Shown: in pieces, positions 6,283 through 45,140 of the stretch
Layout: each line of letters opens with the position of its first letter
How positions within the stretch are numbered: the first letter of the stretch is position 1
From: Escherichia phage phiEc_1
Sequence record: LC768462.1
Length of the DNA stretch: 64,000 nucleotides
Strand: one strand, 5' to 3'
Translations under genes and position numbers: made by a program
Notes under the pieces: generated by a model
Told to the model about the DNA's origin: nothing
The model's input: the letters and a program-made list of their open reading frames with translations, nothing else
The model's database searches: none

Positions 6283-6482
6283 TCACTAGTGCCAGATTTG
6301 ACAAACTAAATTCCTTTATAAACCAACCACTTAGTAAATTTATCGAAAAAGATGGTAGTATTCTGGGACTATGGGTAATGCTCTGTATATAGACCCTTTG
6401 AAAATTTCTTAGAAAATAAGTTTACTAAATATAACTTACTTAAATAATATTACTTTTAATCTCTGATAAAGGGTAAAATGAT

Positions 6483-6779
6483 ATGACTTTAGAAGTATAT
6501 AAATTCCTTTTTGTAAGCTGTTTAACTATCAGCGTTATAGGATTTATTGTTCTCAGAAACAAAGCAGCAAGCTGGGAAAGAATGTATAAATCCCTAGTTC
6601 GAGTGGATGAGATGTATAATGAGAAAGTTAAAGTAACACTCAACGATCTTATTATGCAAGTTGAAGACAGAAATAAGCGTCTTCAGAACCTCAACCATGA
6701 AGTATTACGACTTGCTCGTGCTAATGAAGACTTACGAGTGGCTATTGCTAAGCAGCAGGAGATTAACAGTGAAAGTTAA
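6483..6779 (+). CDS. membrane-anchored coiled-coil protein
   Basis: ORF track; N-terminal TM segment then heptad-rich region. Confidence 0.5.
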   Translation: MTLEVYKFLFVSCLTISVIGFIVLRNKAASWERMYKSLVRVDEMYNEKVKVTLNDLIMQVEDRNKRLQNLNHEVLRLARANEDLRVAIAKQQEINSES

Positions 6780-9456: not shown

Positions 9457-9532
9457 GCGCTCTTAGCTCAATGGATAGAGCAGTAGCCTTCTAAGCTATT
9501 GGTTACAGGTTCGAGTCCTGTAGGGCGCACCA
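9457..9532 (+). tRNA. tRNA-Arg(UCU): tRNA-Arg (anticodon UCU, reads AGA), encoded CCA
   Basis: Cloverleaf folded by hand: 7-bp acceptor stem, D stem GCTC/GAGC, anticodon loop CTTCTAA, T arm ACAGG-TTCGAGT-CCTGT, discriminator A, CCA. Confidence 0.9.
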
Positions 9533-32807: not shown

Positions 32808-32816
32808 TAATGTATA
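32808..32816 (+). promoter_or_regulatory. candidate phage-sigma promoter element (TAATGTATA)
   Basis: Exact 9-mer 37 bp upstream of ATG 32853. Confidence 0.45.
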
Positions 32817-32852
32817 CTCCTTAGTGTACACTGATATATTAAGGAGTTCTAA

Positions 32853-33170
32853 ATGGCAGACCATGTAGGAAAGAGAGATTATGCACAAGAAAGACGTACC
32901 GCAATTGCCCGTGGTGAGACAGGCGTTGGGAGCAAGAGCGGAGATGCTCAGCGCCACCGTGCACGTCGCATCGTTGAAAAGCGCGATGGAAAAGCTGCTG
33001 TCAGAGGTAAAGATGTTGGACACAAACGAGCTGTCAAGTCTGGAGGCTCTAATGCGTCAAGCAACTTACGTGTTGAACCAGTCAGCTCAAACCGTTCAAA
33101 CGGCGGCAAAAGTGGTGATCGCGCTGGAAAAGCAGCTGGAGCACGCAAAGGAGCTTTAAGCTCATCGTAA
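32853..33170 (+). CDS. basic low-complexity protein
   Basis: AAGGAG 8 nt upstream of ATG. Confidence 0.5.
   Translation: MADHVGKRDYAQERRTAIARGETGVGSKSGDAQRHRARRIVEKRDGKAAVRGKDVGHKRAVKSGGSNASSNLRVEPVSSNRSNGGKSGDRAGKAAGARKGALSSS
32881..33159 (+). CDS. alternative-frame helical protein embedded in 32853..33170
   Basis: 92-codon open frame with amphipathic-helix-like composition; weaker SD. Confidence 0.3.
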   Translation: MHKKDVPQLPVVRQALGARAEMLSATVHVASLKSAMEKLLSEVKMLDTNELSSLEALMRQATYVLNQSAQTVQTAAKVVIALEKQLEHAKEL

Positions 33171-33174
33171 TATG

Positions 33175-33205
33175 AGGCTGCCCACTTGGGTGGCCTTTTC
33201 TTTTA
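33175..33205 (+). terminator. rho-independent terminator
   Basis: GGCTGCCCA / TGGGTGGCC stem then TTTTCTTTTAT. Confidence 0.6.
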
Positions 33206-38980: not shown

Positions 38981-39458
38981 AGAACCTGTAGTACATAAAG
39001 ACTCTATCAGAGATCAATATAATGAGATGTTAAAGAAACAAGCTGATTCTAATCTTCGTTATCAGAGGATAGTAGAACAATCTAACTTTAAAGGTTTACT
39101 TGAATGGTAACTTATATTGTTTACTTCTTAGCTTTCTTAGGAATAATCTTTTTATCTATTCTTATTGAATTTGGTTTAAGTAAGTTAGTTAATTATTTAG
39201 GTAATAAGTAATTATTATTCTTTTAAATAGAGAATCAAAGTCCCTAGGAGTCCCTACAACCTAAATCAAGGATTCCTTAATTCTCTATTTTTATCTCGCA
39301 GGTGGCTCCTGCCCTTCGGTACTTGCAAGGGATTCTGTGAATTGCCCAATATACAAGCCTGCAATAACTTTATCAGCTATACAATATATACATTACTAGT
39401 GTGTTATATCTACTACCAAAGATACTTATATTATATAGTACTCTTATCGGTATAAGCG

Positions 39459-39467
39459 TAATGTATA
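39459..39467 (+). promoter_or_regulatory. candidate phage-sigma promoter element (TAATGTATA)
   Basis: Exact 9-mer 60 bp upstream of SSB start, inside an AT-rich intergenic region. Confidence 0.45.
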
Positions 39468-39526
39468 CTATACATAACCGCTCAAAGAGAGCAACAATCT
39501 TTCAAATTAAATAAGGAAATTACAAT

Positions 39527-40273
39527 ATGTCTATGATTCCAACTATCGCAACTGCTTCCCGTAAATCCAACTACGATGTAATCCCTGATGGTGAATACGA
39601 AGCACGTATCGTTCGTGTAGTAGGTTTGGGTGTTCACAATCGTGACCCTTGGATTGACCCGAAGACCAAAGCAGTAACTCCTAAGAATCCGGCTTTCCGT
39701 ATGGATTTAGCTTTCGAGCTGATTGGTGTTGATGCTACTGGTAAAGATTCCGATGGTAAGGCATTAGAACCACGTCCGGCTTGCCAGTTCAAGAGCTATG
39801 ATGTAAACCCACGAGCTAAAAACTCTGGTATTCTTGATCTTTGCAAAATGATTGACCCAAGTATTCAAGCACTGAAAGGTGATCTGTCTTGGTTCAAGGA
39901 TGTTCTGTTAGGTCAGCCTGTTAACATTCTGGTTAACTCTTATACTAACAAAGCTGGTGAAGTTAAAAACTCCATCAAGACCATTTCTCCAATCCCAACC
40001 AAATATCGTGCAGCAGTTGGTGAAGCTCGTAGTCCTCTGGTATTCTTCGAACCGTATGCTGAAACCGATGAGAACGTAGCATCCTATCAACTGATGTTCC
40101 CGTTCCAGCGCAACCTGCTTACTCAAGCTAATGACGCTAAGAACATGCCTCTGGCTGGTCGTGAAATTACTCGTGCTTCTGAAACAGAGCAGAAAGAAGC
40201 TACTCCTTCAATCCCTACGATTGATAAAGAGCCTGCTTCTACTTACGAAGACGACAACGATAGCCCATTCTAA
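39527..40273 (+). CDS. ssb: single-stranded DNA-binding protein (T7 gp2.5-like)
   Basis: Acidic C-terminal tail ...YEDDNDSPF ending in Phe; position in replication module. Confidence 0.6.
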   Translation: MSMIPTIATASRKSNYDVIPDGEYEARIVRVVGLGVHNRDPWIDPKTKAVTPKNPAFRMDLAFELIGVDATGKDSDGKALEPRPACQFKSYDVNPRAKNSGILDLCKMIDPSIQALKGDLSWFKDVLLGQPVNILVNSYTNKAGEVKNSIKTISPIPTKYRAAVGEARSPLVFFEPYAETDENVASYQLMFPFQRNLLTQANDAKNMPLAGREITRASETEQKEATPSIPTIDKEPASTYEDDNDSPF

Positions 40274-40294: not shown

Positions 40295-40319
40295 AGCCAC
40301 CTCCGGGTGGCTTTTTTCG
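40295..40319 (+). terminator. rho-independent terminator
   Basis: AGCCACC-TCCG-GGTGGCT then TTTTTTCG. Confidence 0.7.
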
Positions 40320-43212: not shown

Positions 43213-44017
43213 GCTCCCTGAAGTTGCTATAGTGGATGCTGACGTTCTTCGATATGAAGTGGGTGCTCTTACTCAGGAGCATCCCTTCCTTGACACAGGA
43301 CGTGTTCCAGTTGATTACAATTTCATGATTGAACGACTTCAGTACAAGATCGATACAATCATAGCTCGCTCGGGTTGTAGTAAGGTTGTATTCTACTTCA
43401 GCGAAGGTGGTAACTTTCGTTTCGATGTTGCTAAGCAACAAGACTACAAGGCAAATAGACCTCCCGGAGAAAGACCTTTTCACTGGCAAAACGTTGGTGA
43501 TTATATTAAAGCCAAGTACGAATATATTGAGGTCTTTGGGAGAGAAGCTGATGATGCACTAGCTGAAAGACAACGTAGGGATAAGAATACTATCATCTGT
43601 ACTAGAGACAAGGATTTGTTGATAACTCCCGGATGGCATTATCGCTGGGCTTGTGGAGAAAGACAGAAAGAAGTCCCTCCTCACTATGTATCCGATTTAG
43701 TCTCATGGCAAAACTTCTTCTATCAAATGTTGATTGGAGATGGTACGGATAATATCCCCGGATGTGGGGAACGTAAAGAAGTTATGTGGGGCGGTAAGCT
43801 TCAGCTTCGACGCCAAGGAATAGGGAAGAAGGCAGCAGCTAAATTACTAGCTGGTGTTACAGATAAGTGGACCATGTATCATATAGTACGAATGGAATAT
43901 TATAAGAAGTTCGATACTGAAGATGAAGAGAAGATGCTCGAGAATGCTCGGCTTCTCTTTGTTGGTCAGACTCCGGAAGACCTGTTCGACTGGACATGGT
44001 TAGATAAATCTTGGTAA
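43199..44017 (+). CDS. 5'-3' exonuclease / flap endonuclease (FEN family)
   Basis: H3TH motif GDGTDNIPG...IGKKAAAKLLAG and acidic clusters; ATG 43199 in track frame. Confidence 0.8.
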   Translation: MEEVKLPEVAIVDADVLRYEVGALTQEHPFLDTGRVPVDYNFMIERLQYKIDTIIARSGCSKVVFYFSEGGNFRFDVAKQQDYKANRPPGERPFHWQNVGDYIKAKYEYIEVFGREADDALAERQRRDKNTIICTRDKDLLITPGWHYRWACGERQKEVPPHYVSDLVSWQNFFYQMLIGDGTDNIPGCGERKEVMWGGKLQLRRQGIGKKAAAKLLAGVTDKWTMYHIVRMEYYKKFDTEDEEKMLENARLLFVGQTPEDLFDWTWLDKSW

Positions 44018-44030
44018 TAAGGATATTATA

Positions 44031-44210
44031 ATGGGTAAATTTGATTATCGTTCATATGATGAAAACTCCTCAAATCGTGAATCTCGTAAAGACCAAAAGA
44101 TCAAGCATCAGCTGTTTGATCAGCGTACTGGTCGTATTCCTCGTGAGGGCAAAGTAAGTCATCGTGTAAACAAACGAGTTTGGGAAGAAGCTGATTATGG
44201 CGAAGTCTGA
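44031..44210 (+). CDS. small basic protein (59 aa)
   Basis: AAGGA SD then ATG 44031. Confidence 0.4.
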   Translation: MGKFDYRSYDENSSNRESRKDQKIKHQLFDQRTGRIPREGKVSHRVNKRVWEEADYGEV

Positions 44211-44598
44211 GAAGACTCGCTGTAGTGGAATGTGGACTGAAGCTCGTTACAACTCTTTCATCAAGTCAGGGATTCGTTCTCTGACTAGAAAGTGGAAGCC
44301 CATGTTCGATGCACTAGCAGACGCCAAGACAGAGCAGAAGATTAATCCAAAGACAGGAAGACTGGCAATGCACTTTAAGTGTGCCATGTGTGGTTCTGAC
44401 CACCCTGTAAAGGATATGGCTATTGACCACATAGAGCCTATAGTTCCCTTAGATCACGAAGCAACTTGGGATGAAATCATCTCTCGTGCCCTGTGTGAGA
44501 AAGAGGGTTTTCAGGTTCTGTGTAAAGACCCTTGTCATAAGATTAAAACTAAGATGGAAAATGATGCAAGAAAACAATTCAAAAAAGGAAATGAGTGA
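44197..44598 (+). CDS. HNH endonuclease
   Basis: CxxC ... DHIEPIV ... CxxxCH pattern. Confidence 0.7.
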   Translation: MAKSEKTRCSGMWTEARYNSFIKSGIRSLTRKWKPMFDALADAKTEQKINPKTGRLAMHFKCAMCGSDHPVKDMAIDHIEPIVPLDHEATWDEIISRALCEKEGFQVLCKDPCHKIKTKMENDARKQFKKGNE

Positions 44599-44818
44599 TG
44601 ATCAAAAATCTACGCAACAAGTGCTTCGCTTTCGCTATCGCAATTGGAGAGGCGAGATTGCTGACCGGTCCGTTATTCCACTCCGAACCTCCGTTGCTAG
44701 CTCCCGTTTTCATAACGGTGGCAAACCTTGTTGGATTATGACAGCAATTGATGTAGAGAAAGATGAGATTCGAGAGTTCAAACTCTCTGACATTATCCAG
44801 TATTACGATTTGATTTAG
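44591..44818 (+). CDS. hypothetical protein
   Basis: ATG 44591 in track frame, overlapping HNH stop. Confidence 0.5.
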   Translation: MSDDQKSTQQVLRFRYRNWRGEIADRSVIPLRTSVASSRFHNGGKPCWIMTAIDVEKDEIREFKLSDIIQYYDLI

Positions 44819-44826
44819 GAAATAAC

Positions 44827-44988
44827 ATGATCACACAGTCAGATAAAAACAAACTCTTCGACTTAATCCATGACCTACTAGAAGCTCAGAGTTTTATTGA
44901 CAACGCACACACTTGGGAGATGGAATCAGCTGGAAAAGCTTTTGATGAAAGTGAAGAGAAGCTTATTAATTTTATAAACACAATCTAG
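44827..44988 (+). CDS. small acidic protein (53 aa)
   Basis: Short ORF before the convergent terminator. Confidence 0.35.
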   Translation: MITQSDKNKLFDLIHDLLEAQSFIDNAHTWEMESAGKAFDESEEKLINFINTI

Positions 44989-45140
44989 GGGGGTTATATG
45001 AATGAAGAAGTTGTTATTCTTGGCAGTAAATCAGATTGGTTCTACGGAGGCATCTCAGGATGCTTTGAAGATGAACATCCAGACTTCTGAAGAGAATTGG
45101 GATGTATGACGAATTTGATGGTTTTTAAAACTTAGAAACA

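What the first reader, a model, noticed from the sequence alone, without database searches (positions are those of the whole stretch)
39111..39526. 416-bp AT-rich intergenic region with inverted repeats upstream of SSB (candidate replication origin or regulatory hub)
This is the longest non-coding gap inside the replication module. It contains an 11-bp inverted repeat pair (AAATAGAGAAT ... ATTCTCTATTT) flanking a CCTAGG-centred palindrome, a GC-rich hairpin, runs of TATAC/ATATA, and the TAATGTATA element, directly before ssb.
Basis: seen in the sequence. Interest (0 to 1): 0.4.

Follow-up and report, generated by a model that had tools for sequence, protein, structure and literature searches.

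The report
Phage promoter hub with antisense RNA
This AT-rich gap in a phiEco32-like coliphage holds the already published promoter of the SSB-like gene 40. It also holds an apparently undescribed, strongly conserved opposite-strand promoter that probably makes a short structured non-coding RNA, and nothing positive marks it as a replication origin.

Summary
The window is a Kuravirus (phiEco32/SU10-like) genome. However, the first 101 nt are gene 41 (35 aa), so the true gap is 315 bp (39212-39526).

- **Known part.** TAATGTATA at 39459-39467 is the published gp36-sigma middle promoter P40 of phiEco32 (P37 in SU10). It drives gene 40, an OB-fold, SSB-like protein.
- **New promoter.** A second exact TAATGTATA lies on the minus strand (39387-39395). 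It is preceded by TGGTAGTA at the same 15-nt spacing as in validated promoter P68. Both boxes are conserved in about 18 distinct relatives, while the spacer between them varies.
- **New RNA.** Its predicted +1 (39380) is the first base of a hairpin with compensatory changes in 4 of 6 pairs. The G-U pairs in this hairpin work only on the minus strand. The roughly 160-nt transcript would run through the GC hairpin and the inverted repeat.
- **Invariant block.** 39221-39318 is 96% identical across relatives, against 79% for third codon positions of gene 40.
- **Origin tests.** GC skew, DnaA boxes and iterons give no support. Only low duplex stability fits an origin.

Verdict: a transcriptional hub, partly known, with a likely new divergent promoter and non-coding RNA. 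A transcription-primed origin remains a minority rival.

The parts
39104..39211 (+). Small ORF (35 aa, hydrophobic), homologue of phiEco32 gene 41.
   Evidence: ORF listing; phi32_41 annotation in NC_010324; PHROG 24970 E=2.9e-26. Replaced by other genes in some relatives.
39221..39318 (.). Near-invariant 98-bp non-coding block, made of the inverted-repeat hairpin H4, a T5 tract and the GC hairpin H3.
   Evidence: Mean pairwise identity 0.963 and 86/98 invariant columns in 19 distinct relatives, against 0.787 at gene-40 third codon positions. Present once in each of 98 Kuravirus-like records and nowhere else. Kept in lineages with SSB-like protein only 71% identical.
39225..39290 (.). Inverted-repeat hairpin H4. 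Arms are 39225-39235 and 39280-39290. The 44-nt interior holds CCTAGG and two AGTCCCTA repeats. On the plus strand it is an 11-bp stem followed by U5; on the minus strand it is a 15-bp stem using two G-U pairs.
   Evidence: The right flank TATTTTTATC is invariant, while the left flank varies without compensation.
39298..39312 (.). GC-rich hairpin H3 (GCAGG TGGCT CCTGC).
   Evidence: Predicted on both strands. There is one compensatory variant, GCTGG/CCAGC, in L029.
39319..39359 (.). Variable cassette. Three unrelated sequence types (A, B, C) occupy this slot in different lineages.
   Evidence: identity 0.67.
39222..39380 (-). Candidate non-coding RNA of about 160 nt, ordered H1 - cassette - H3 - GAGAUAAAAAU - H4. 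The 5' end is predicted and the 3' end is uncertain.
   Evidence: No ATG-initiated ORF on this strand. Minus-strand MFE is lower than plus-strand MFE in 7/7 lineages. Structure.
39364..39380 (-). 5' hairpin H1 (AUAGCU GAUAA AGUUAU). It starts at the predicted +1 (A39380) and is followed by an invariant UGCA.
   Evidence: Seven sequence versions all fold in the same register. 96% of cells are paired, 4 of 6 pairs show changes on both sides, and 0/500 shuffles reach this. The G-U pairs are valid only on the minus strand.
39385..39395 (-). Minus-strand TAATGTATATA, an exact match to the gp36 promoter consensus ('P-as').
   Evidence: Conserved in 18/19 distinct close sequences, with recognisable variants in L029, L031 and L032.
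39411..39418 (-). Upstream box TGGTAGTA, 15 nt before the minus-strand motif. P68 has the same box at the same spacing.
   Evidence: All 3 TGGTAGTA copies in the window are followed at N15 by WAATG, which is 3 matches against 0.06 expected. The SU10 authors label this box '-35' at P68.
39459..39467 (+). TAATGTATA of promoter P40 (phiEco32) / P37 (SU10), the gp36-holoenzyme middle promoter of gene 40. Predicted +1 is about 39474.
   Evidence: Published lists in PMC8948821 Table S3 and PMC4281155 Table S2. Sequence is identical in phiEco32 (L002/L010). TSS rule.
39474..39526 (+). Conserved 5' leader of gene 40. It has a hairpin GCUC-AAAGA-GAGC (39480-39492), then an A/U-rich tract and the RBS AAGGAA (39513-39518).
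   Evidence: Identity 0.90. The hairpin is kept as GUUC/GAAC in L029 and L031.
39527..40273 (+). Gene 40 homologue, an OB-fold SSB-like protein of 248 aa with an acidic C-terminus ending DSPF.

Best explanation
The gap is a transcription-control module of the middle-gene cluster. It is not demonstrably an origin.

1. **Shown by homology to experiments.** TAATGTATA at 39459-39467 is promoter P40. E. coli RNA polymerase carrying the phage sigma gp36 starts about 7 nt downstream and transcribes gene 40 (SSB-like) through a conserved leader.
2. **Inferred, with strong comparative support.** Back to back with P40, a second promoter on the minus strand fires leftward. It reads TGGTAGTA-N15-TAATGTATATA, a copy of the validated middle promoter P68. 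It would produce a non-coding RNA of about 150-190 nt. That RNA begins exactly with a covarying hairpin (H1), crosses a lineage-variable cassette and a GC hairpin (H3), and ends in or near the large inverted-repeat hairpin (H4).
3. **Inferred, weaker.** H4 has a short A tract on its left flank and a T5 tract on its right. It would act as a two-way transcription stop. It ends rightward transcripts from genes 58-41, which would explain why gene 40 needs its own promoter. It also keeps the leftward RNA from running antisense into gene 41.

The near-invariance of H4 and H3 would then come from constraints on both strands, from a bound factor, or both. What the RNA does is not known. It could be antisense to read-through transcripts, a trans-acting regulator, or a primer.
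For: **Identity of the phage**
- The window is 98-99% identical to SU10, TH38 and phiEco32-like phages.

**P40**
- P40 is listed with exactly this sequence in PMC8948821 Table S3 and PMC4281155 Table S2.
- Published work places the TSS 6-8 nt downstream of the motif, with AATGTA centred at -11.5.

**Minus-strand promoter**
- There are only four exact TAATGTATA copies in 64 kb. Three sit at positions corresponding to published promoters (P58, P40 and P26 equivalents), and the fourth is the minus-strand copy.
- It shares TTGGTAGTAGATAT + N10 + AATGTATAT with P68.
- TGGTAGTA-N15-WAATG occurs three times, against 0.06 expected.
- Both boxes and the spacer length are conserved in the roughly 18 distinct relatives. 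The spacer sequence varies: identity is 0.60, against 0.88-0.94 for the boxes.

**Hairpin H1**
- The seventh nucleotide after the motif is the first paired base in every lineage, and seven different stem sequences occur.
- 96% of cells are paired, 4 of 6 pairs have compensatory changes, 0/500 shuffles reach this, and slid controls give 24-51%.
- The G-U pairs would be A-C mismatches on the plus strand.

**Other support**
- Minus-strand MFE is lower than plus-strand MFE in 7/7 lineages.
- No conserved ORF lies on the minus strand.
- The H3/H4 block is 96% identical, against 79% at third codon positions.
- The T5 tract after H4 is invariant, and the element always begins within about 15 nt of the stop codon of whichever gene lies upstream.
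- P58 and P68 sit in gaps of only 58-72 bp without such elements.
Against: - No transcript data could be consulted. The primary phiEco32 transcription papers are not held, so activity of the minus-strand promoter is untested.
- H4 is not a canonical intrinsic terminator. It has a 44-nt interior and only 2-3 G-C pairs in the closing stem, and the scan did not call it. The same phage uses canonical GC-rich terminators at 33176-33205 and 40295-40312.
- The minus-strand tail after H4 has only U2-U4 followed by A's, so the 3' end of the RNA is uncertain.
- H4 itself shows no covariation because it hardly varies. The changes in its outer left arm are uncompensated.
- The alignment used was fitted to the structure by a covariance model, which favours pairing.
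- No target of the RNA was found.
Confidence: 0.5

Rival explanations
1. The region is a transcription-activated or transcription-primed replication origin, of the T7 primary-origin or T4 ori(uvsY)/ori(34) type. The divergent gp36 promoters open the very AT-rich DNA. The leftward non-coding transcript, or an R-loop it forms, primes DNA synthesis. The invariant H3/H4 block would be a processing or loading site.
For: - The gap lies inside the replication and nucleotide-metabolism cluster, with DNA polymerase upstream and the SSB-like gene and 5'-3' exonuclease downstream.
- Two of the three least stable 100-bp stretches in 64 kb lie here, one of them between the two promoters.
- A phage promoter with no gene downstream is what T4 and T7 origins look like (established knowledge, not tested here).
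- The strong sequence-level conservation of a non-coding block would fit a cis-acting replication site.
Against: - GC and AT skew show no step at 39.3 kb. The only sign change, at about 44 kb, coincides with the convergence of the two gene clusters.
- There are no DnaA boxes and no iteron array.
- The spacing between the two promoters is not kept: ES17-type phages carry a ~145-bp insertion there.
- AT-richness is equally expected of promoters.
- No experimental origin is known for this group in the papers I could search.
Confidence: 0.2
2. Only the plus strand matters. H4 plus U5 is the terminator or 3'-end stabiliser (or an RNase III-type processing site) of the gene 58-41 transcripts, and P40 restarts transcription. 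The minus-strand TAATGTATA is an inactive or irrelevant copy of P68.
For: - The element always sits right after the upstream stop codon, and its U5 flank is invariant.
- The published promoter lists contain six sites and not this one.
- The plus-strand fold of H4 is stable.
Against: - It does not explain the conservation of both minus-strand promoter boxes at fixed spacing with a variable spacer.
- It does not explain a covarying hairpin placed exactly at the predicted minus-strand +1, whose G-U pairs fail on the plus strand.
- It does not explain why a simple terminator would be conserved like second codon positions, including its 44-nt interior.
Confidence: 0.15
3. The invariant block is a double-stranded DNA binding site for a phage or host protein, for example an operator or architectural site that uses the 8-bp direct repeats 10 bp apart and the flanking inverted repeat. 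That protein would control P40 and the divergent promoter.
For: - Primary sequence is conserved in loops as well as stems.
- The two AGTCCCTA repeats are one helical turn apart.
- Both repeats change together, CCC to CC, in one haplotype.
Against: - The block is 70-240 bp from the promoters, and the intervening cassette varies in length between lineages.
- No other copy of any sub-motif lies near other promoters in the window.
- The concerted repeat change is a single haplotype and could reflect one recombination event.
Confidence: 0.1

Closest known systems
phiEco32 gp36-dependent middle/late promoters (P6, P13, P26, P40, P58, P68; consensus tAATGTAtA)
   Same: 39459-39467 is P40 itself, with sequence identical to phiEco32 and SU10. 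The minus-strand site has the full consensus plus the P68-type upstream box at identical spacing.
   Different: The minus-strand site points away from every annotated gene and is not among the six published promoters. Its activity is untested.
Lambda oop RNA / pO (short leftward non-coding RNA made from an intergenic promoter inside a rightward operon, next to the replication genes)
   Same: A small structured RNA is transcribed against the flow of the surrounding operon. It is complementary to the 3' part of upstream sense transcripts and lies in the replication region.
   Different: There is no sequence relation. The RNA here is about twice as long, the promoter uses a phage sigma, its terminator is atypical, and no function is known.
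T7 primary origin (phi1.1A/1.1B promoters plus an AT-rich stretch) and T4 ori(uvsY)/ori(34) (middle promoter plus DNA-unwinding element)
   Same: Phage-specific promoter(s) abut very AT-rich non-coding DNA within or near the replication genes.
   Different: There is no evidence of initiation here. The skew is flat, and the transcript is highly structured rather than forming an obvious R-loop over an unwinding element.
Bidirectional intrinsic terminators between bacterial transcription units
   Same: A hairpin is flanked by a short A tract and a T tract and lies between opposed transcription units.
   Different: The stem is A/U-rich with a 44-nt structured interior. The tail is U5 on one side but only U2-U4 on the other. 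Sequence conservation is far above what terminators need.
Rfam RF03084 DUF2815 RNA (leader motif of phage SSB-like genes)
   Same: A weak match lies in the leader of an SSB-like gene (39488-39529).
   Different: The score is 14.8 bits against a gathering score of 41.2. The model's central hairpin is absent, so only the RBS-proximal A/U-rich part matches. It is not a member.

Membership tests
gp36-dependent promoter of phiEco32-like phages | Single consensus element tAATGTAtA | tested here: met
   Exact matches at 39459-39467 (+) and 39387-39395 (-).
gp36-dependent promoter of phiEco32-like phages | Orthologous position to an experimentally mapped promoter | tested here: met
   This holds for the plus-strand site only. 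It is upstream of the phi32_40 homologue, and the sequence is identical in phiEco32 and SU10. The minus-strand site has no published counterpart.
gp36-dependent promoter of phiEco32-like phages | Transcript 5' end 6-8 nt downstream of the element, in vivo or in vitro | not testable with these tools
   No transcript data are available. Indirect support is that hairpin H1 starts at the seventh nucleotide after the motif in all lineages.
Intrinsic (Rho-independent) terminator | G+C-rich stem with a short loop (3-8 nt) | tested here: not met
   H4 has a 44-nt interior and 2-3 G-C pairs in the closing 8-11 bp. The scan did not call it.
Intrinsic (Rho-independent) terminator | U tract immediately 3' of the stem | tested here: inconclusive
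   The plus strand has U5, invariant in all relatives. The minus strand has only U2-U4 followed by A's.
Replication origin, initiator/iteron or DnaA type | Array of iterons or DnaA boxes | tested here: not met
   Only 2 x 8-bp direct repeats are present, and no DnaA box is found within 2 mismatches.
Replication origin (any type) | Compositional skew inflection at the site | tested here: not met
   Skew stays positive from 2 to 44 kb with no step at 39 kb. The sign change at about 44 kb coincides with gene orientation. This is a weak test in phages.
Replication origin (any type) | Easily melted AT-rich stretch | tested here: met
   39136-39235 and 39377-39476 rank second and third least stable of all 100-bp stretches in the window.
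Replication origin (any type) | Initiation mapped to the site | not testable with these tools
   This needs marker-frequency analysis or 2D gels.
Structured non-coding RNA gene | Own promoter, no ORF, and secondary structure supported by covariation | tested here: met
   Promoter. No ATG-initiated ORF. H1 covariation. One compensatory change in H3. H4 is invariant, so it gives no information.
Structured non-coding RNA gene | Defined 3' end and detectable transcript | not testable with these tools
   No RNA data are available, and the terminator on this strand is atypical.
Rfam RF03084 DUF2815 RNA | Score at or above the gathering threshold, with the central hairpin | tested here: not met
   14.8 bits against 41.2. 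The 23-nt hairpin segment is replaced by 3 nt.
Single-stranded DNA-binding protein (gene 40 product) | OB fold plus an acidic C-terminal tip | tested here: inconclusive
   The AF2 model has pLDDT 82. PDB matches are weak (best E=1e-3, TM 0.29/0.49) but are almost all SSB/PriB/RPA OB folds. The family consensus ends DDDxPF. There is no Pfam hit.

The most novel reading that the evidence does not exclude
The minus-strand promoter and the invariant H3/H4 module together encode a gp36- or sigma70-transcribed RNA that acts as the replication primer or activator of Kuravirus. This would resemble ColE1 RNA II or the T4 origin transcripts, and it would make this gap the first defined origin for the group. 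A variant reading is a trans-acting phage small RNA whose invariant loops contact a host factor.
Probability: 0.2. Interest if true: 0.65.

Novelty: new member of a known kind. Interest (0 to 1): 0.42.

Why it matters
phiEco32 is a reference system for phage-encoded sigma factors, and its transcription map is regarded as six gp36 promoters.

- **A seventh promoter.** A conserved promoter that points against the gene flow and makes a structured non-coding RNA would add an unrecognised layer to that map.
- **A use for the unexplained block.** It would give a function to a 98-bp block that is as conserved as protein-coding positions.
- **A testable origin candidate.** It would provide a concrete candidate for the still unknown origin or its control.
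- **Practical corrections.** The gap is 315 bp rather than 416 bp. The evidence also supports annotating gene 40 as an SSB-like OB-fold protein.

Tried and rejected
- **Rfam.** Nothing reached the gathering threshold in the region. At permissive E-values there were only a sub-threshold DUF2815 RNA match, limited to the RBS region, and a meaningless miRNA hit.
- **tRNA/tmRNA scan.** Nothing in the region.
- **Copies of the element.** No copies or complementary sites were found elsewhere in the window beyond chance: eight 11-mers against about six expected. There were none in E. coli genomes, in other phage genera or in IMG/VR. Of the 47 15-mer hits in IMG/VR, 42 were chance matches.
- **Target search.** Duplex prediction of the candidate RNA against 148 translation-initiation regions gave no outlier; the best z-score was -2.8.
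- **Structure prediction.** The single-sequence AF2 model of gene 40 was unusable at pLDDT 36. It was repeated with an alignment.
- **PDB sequence search.** No hit.
- **Alignment problems.** MAFFT misaligned the 3' arm of H1 in divergent lineages (A4). I used a covariance-model alignment instead, which missed L029.
- **Relatives that did not help.** L028 (SSB-like protein 76% identical) is cut 199 nt upstream of the gene and was uninformative. L007-L009 (67-70%) lack the element and have a different leader.
- **Literature.** Searches for Kuravirus transcriptomes or origins were unproductive. The two primary phiEco32 papers are not held. The svsR paper is unrelated to this locus.
- **Hypotheses considered and dropped.** These were a small protein on either strand of 39212-39400 (no conserved ORF), a tRNA-like element, a repeated mobile cassette (the element is single-copy) and a boxA/nut site (the resemblance is on the wrong strand only).

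Full report
**What the window is.** The 1.9 kb around the finding is 98-99% identical to Escherichia phages TH38, SU10, KM01 and other Kuravirus members. In all, 98 phage records match, all from Escherichia or Shigella. Locus L002/L010 is phiEco32 itself.

**Checking the observation.**
- The 11-bp inverted repeat lies at 39225-39235 / 39280-39290 and extends to 14 nt at 93%.
- CCTAGG lies at 39243, within two direct AGTCCCTA repeats.
- The GC hairpin lies at 39298-39312.
- TAATGTATA lies at 39459-39467.
- The stretch has 30% G+C against 42% for the window. It contains two of the three least stable 100-bp segments in 64 kb.

Three corrections are needed.
- The first 101 nt (39104-39211 overlaps 39111-39211) encode a 35-aa hydrophobic protein. 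It is annotated in phiEco32, SU7 and Ptacy1479 and matches PHROG 24970. The true gap is therefore 315 bp.
- An 11-bp perfect inverted repeat appears in 4% of dinucleotide shuffles, so on its own it is weak evidence.
- A second exact TAATGTATA sits on the minus strand at 39387-39395.

**The known part.** The phiEco32 literature defines six promoters read by E. coli RNA polymerase carrying the phage sigma gp36.
- The consensus is tAATGTAtA. Start sites lie 6-8 nt downstream, and AATGTA is centred at -11.5.
- One of the six is P40, called P37 in SU10. SU10 Table S2 prints 'aagcgtaatgtatactatacataaccgctcaaagagagcaa between CDS37 and CDS38', which is the window sequence at 39454-39494.
- Its leader (39474-39526) is conserved at 0.90 identity. 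It carries a small hairpin, GCUC-AAAGA-GAGC, which is kept as GUUC/GAAC in diverged lineages.

**The new part: a divergent promoter.** Only four exact TAATGTATA copies occur in 64 kb. Three sit at the positions of the published P58, P40 and P26, and the fourth is the minus-strand copy.
- The minus-strand copy is preceded by TTGGTAGTAGATAT at the same distance as in P68, where the SU10 authors call this box '-35'.
- All three TGGTAGTA copies in the window are followed 15 nt later by WAATG. That is 3 matches against 0.06 expected from shuffles.
- I examined 18-19 distinct relatives. They include metagenomic lineages whose gene-40 protein is only 71-82% identical. In all of them both boxes are kept and their spacing stays at 14-15 nt, while the spacer sequence is free to vary.
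- That pattern is the signature of a working bipartite promoter.
- No annotated gene and no ATG-initiated ORF lie downstream of it on that strand.

**The RNA it would make.** Applying the published spacing, +1 is A39380.
- In every lineage this base is the first paired base of a 5-6-bp hairpin (H1), which is immediately followed by UGCA. Seven different stem sequences occur.
- On a covariance-model alignment, 96% of cells pair and 4 of 6 pairs show changes on both sides. No shuffle out of 500 reaches this, and slid registers give 24-51%. The alignment was fitted to the structure, so this is somewhat favourable. The ten equal-length sequences, however, align without gaps and already show C-G/U-A/A-U and G-U/G-C exchanges.
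- The G-U pairs would be A-C mismatches on the plus strand, so the constraint is on a minus-strand RNA.
- Downstream come a cassette with three unrelated versions in different lineages, then the GC hairpin H3 (one compensatory variant), an invariant GAGAUAAAAAU linker, and the large hairpin H4.
- On the minus strand H4 forms a 15-bp stem using two G-U pairs.
- The minus-strand fold is more stable than the plus-strand fold in 7 of 7 lineages, although z-scores are modest at -1.8 to -3.7.

**The invariant block.** Positions 39221-39318 (H4, T5 and H3) are 96% identical, with 86 of 98 columns invariant. This equals second codon positions of gene 40 (0.957) and is far above third positions (0.787).
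- The block persists almost unchanged where the upstream gene, the cassette, the spacers and the leader have all changed.
- It occurs once per genome in all 98 records and in no other phage genus, IMG/VR contig or E. coli genome.
- Its right flank, TATTTTTATC, never varies. The outer left arm does vary, without compensation.
- The block always starts within about 15 nt of the preceding stop codon.
- I read this as a transcription stop for rightward transcripts, which would explain why gene 40 has its own promoter. By contrast, P58 and P68 sit in gaps of only 58-72 bp. It may also stop the leftward RNA.
- H4 is not a canonical terminator, and the phage has canonical ones at 33176-33205 and 40295-40312. 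Its extreme sequence conservation is therefore only partly explained. Function on both strands, or a bound factor, is likely.

**The origin hypothesis.** Nothing happens at 39.3 kb.
- There are no DnaA boxes and no iteron array.
- The positive features are low duplex stability and phage promoters facing non-coding DNA inside the replication gene cluster. These are also the anatomy of T7 and T4 origins (established knowledge, not tested here).
- The hypothesis survives as a rival at about 0.2, with the minus-strand transcript as the candidate primer or activator.

**The neighbour gene.** Gene 40 has no Pfam domain, and its PHROG family is of unknown function.
- An AF2 model built with 29 homologues is confident (pLDDT 82).
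- Its PDB matches are weak, but they are almost exclusively OB-fold ssDNA binders: PrgE, SSB, PriB and RPA.
- The family ends in DDDxPF, the hallmark tip of bacterial SSBs (knowledge).
- 'SSB-like' is reasonable but not proven.

**Verdict.**
- One component, P40, is already known.
- The divergent P68-like promoter, its covarying 5' hairpin and the ultra-conserved 98-bp block are not mentioned in any paper I could read.
- The finding is best classed as a new member of a known kind: a phage non-coding or antisense transcription unit with an insulating hairpin.

Noticed in passing
window 6283-6482 (motif at 6353-6380): A 200-bp AT-rich intergenic gap in the early region holds the third TGGTAGTA-N15-TAATG site of the window, here TAATGCTCT rather than the gp36 consensus. 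It also holds the least stable 100-bp stretch of all 64 kb (6404-6503). This is a candidate unlisted promoter upstream of ORF 6483-6779.
   Followed up: partly
L013 (ES17) 1733-1876; same place in L003, L016-L021, L034: A ~145-bp insertion lies between the minus-strand promoter box and P40. It carries a 47-aa basic ORF whose ATG abuts the TGGTAGTA box, and the ORF is frameshifted in L003. The spacing between the two promoters is therefore not conserved.
   Followed up: partly
window 39319-39359 and homologous slots in L003, L005, L029, L032: Three unrelated 'cassettes' (about 41, 67 and 32 nt) occupy the same slot between invariant flanks. This suggests recombination at conserved boundaries. 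The type C stem shows compensatory changes between L029 and L032.
   Followed up: partly
window 33176-33205 and 40295-40312: Canonical GC-rich intrinsic terminators lie inside the middle-gene cluster, after the first gene downstream of P58 and after gene 40. The second is annotated as a terminator in phage Paul.
   Followed up: partly
window 32808-32856: The leader of the P58-equivalent promoter contains CUCCUUA...UAAGGAG, which could sequester the Shine-Dalgarno sequence of the downstream gene.
   Followed up: no
window 9457-9532: A tRNA-Arg (anticodon TCT) gene, the only Rfam or ARAGORN hit in the window.
   Followed up: no
L007-L009, about 145 bp upstream of the gene-40 homologue: More distant relatives (67-70% protein identity) lack the whole module. 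They instead share a different conserved leader with GCTTAGCTT repeats and a hairpin next to the RBS, and they have no TAATGTATA motif.
   Followed up: no
window 39488-39529: A sub-threshold match to Rfam DUF2815 RNA, a leader motif of phage SSB-like genes. It covers only the A/U-rich RBS part. This hints at, but does not show, an SSB-type autoregulatory leader.
   Followed up: partly
window ~44000-45000: GC skew changes sign where the plus-strand (early/middle) and minus-strand (late) gene clusters converge.
   Followed up: no
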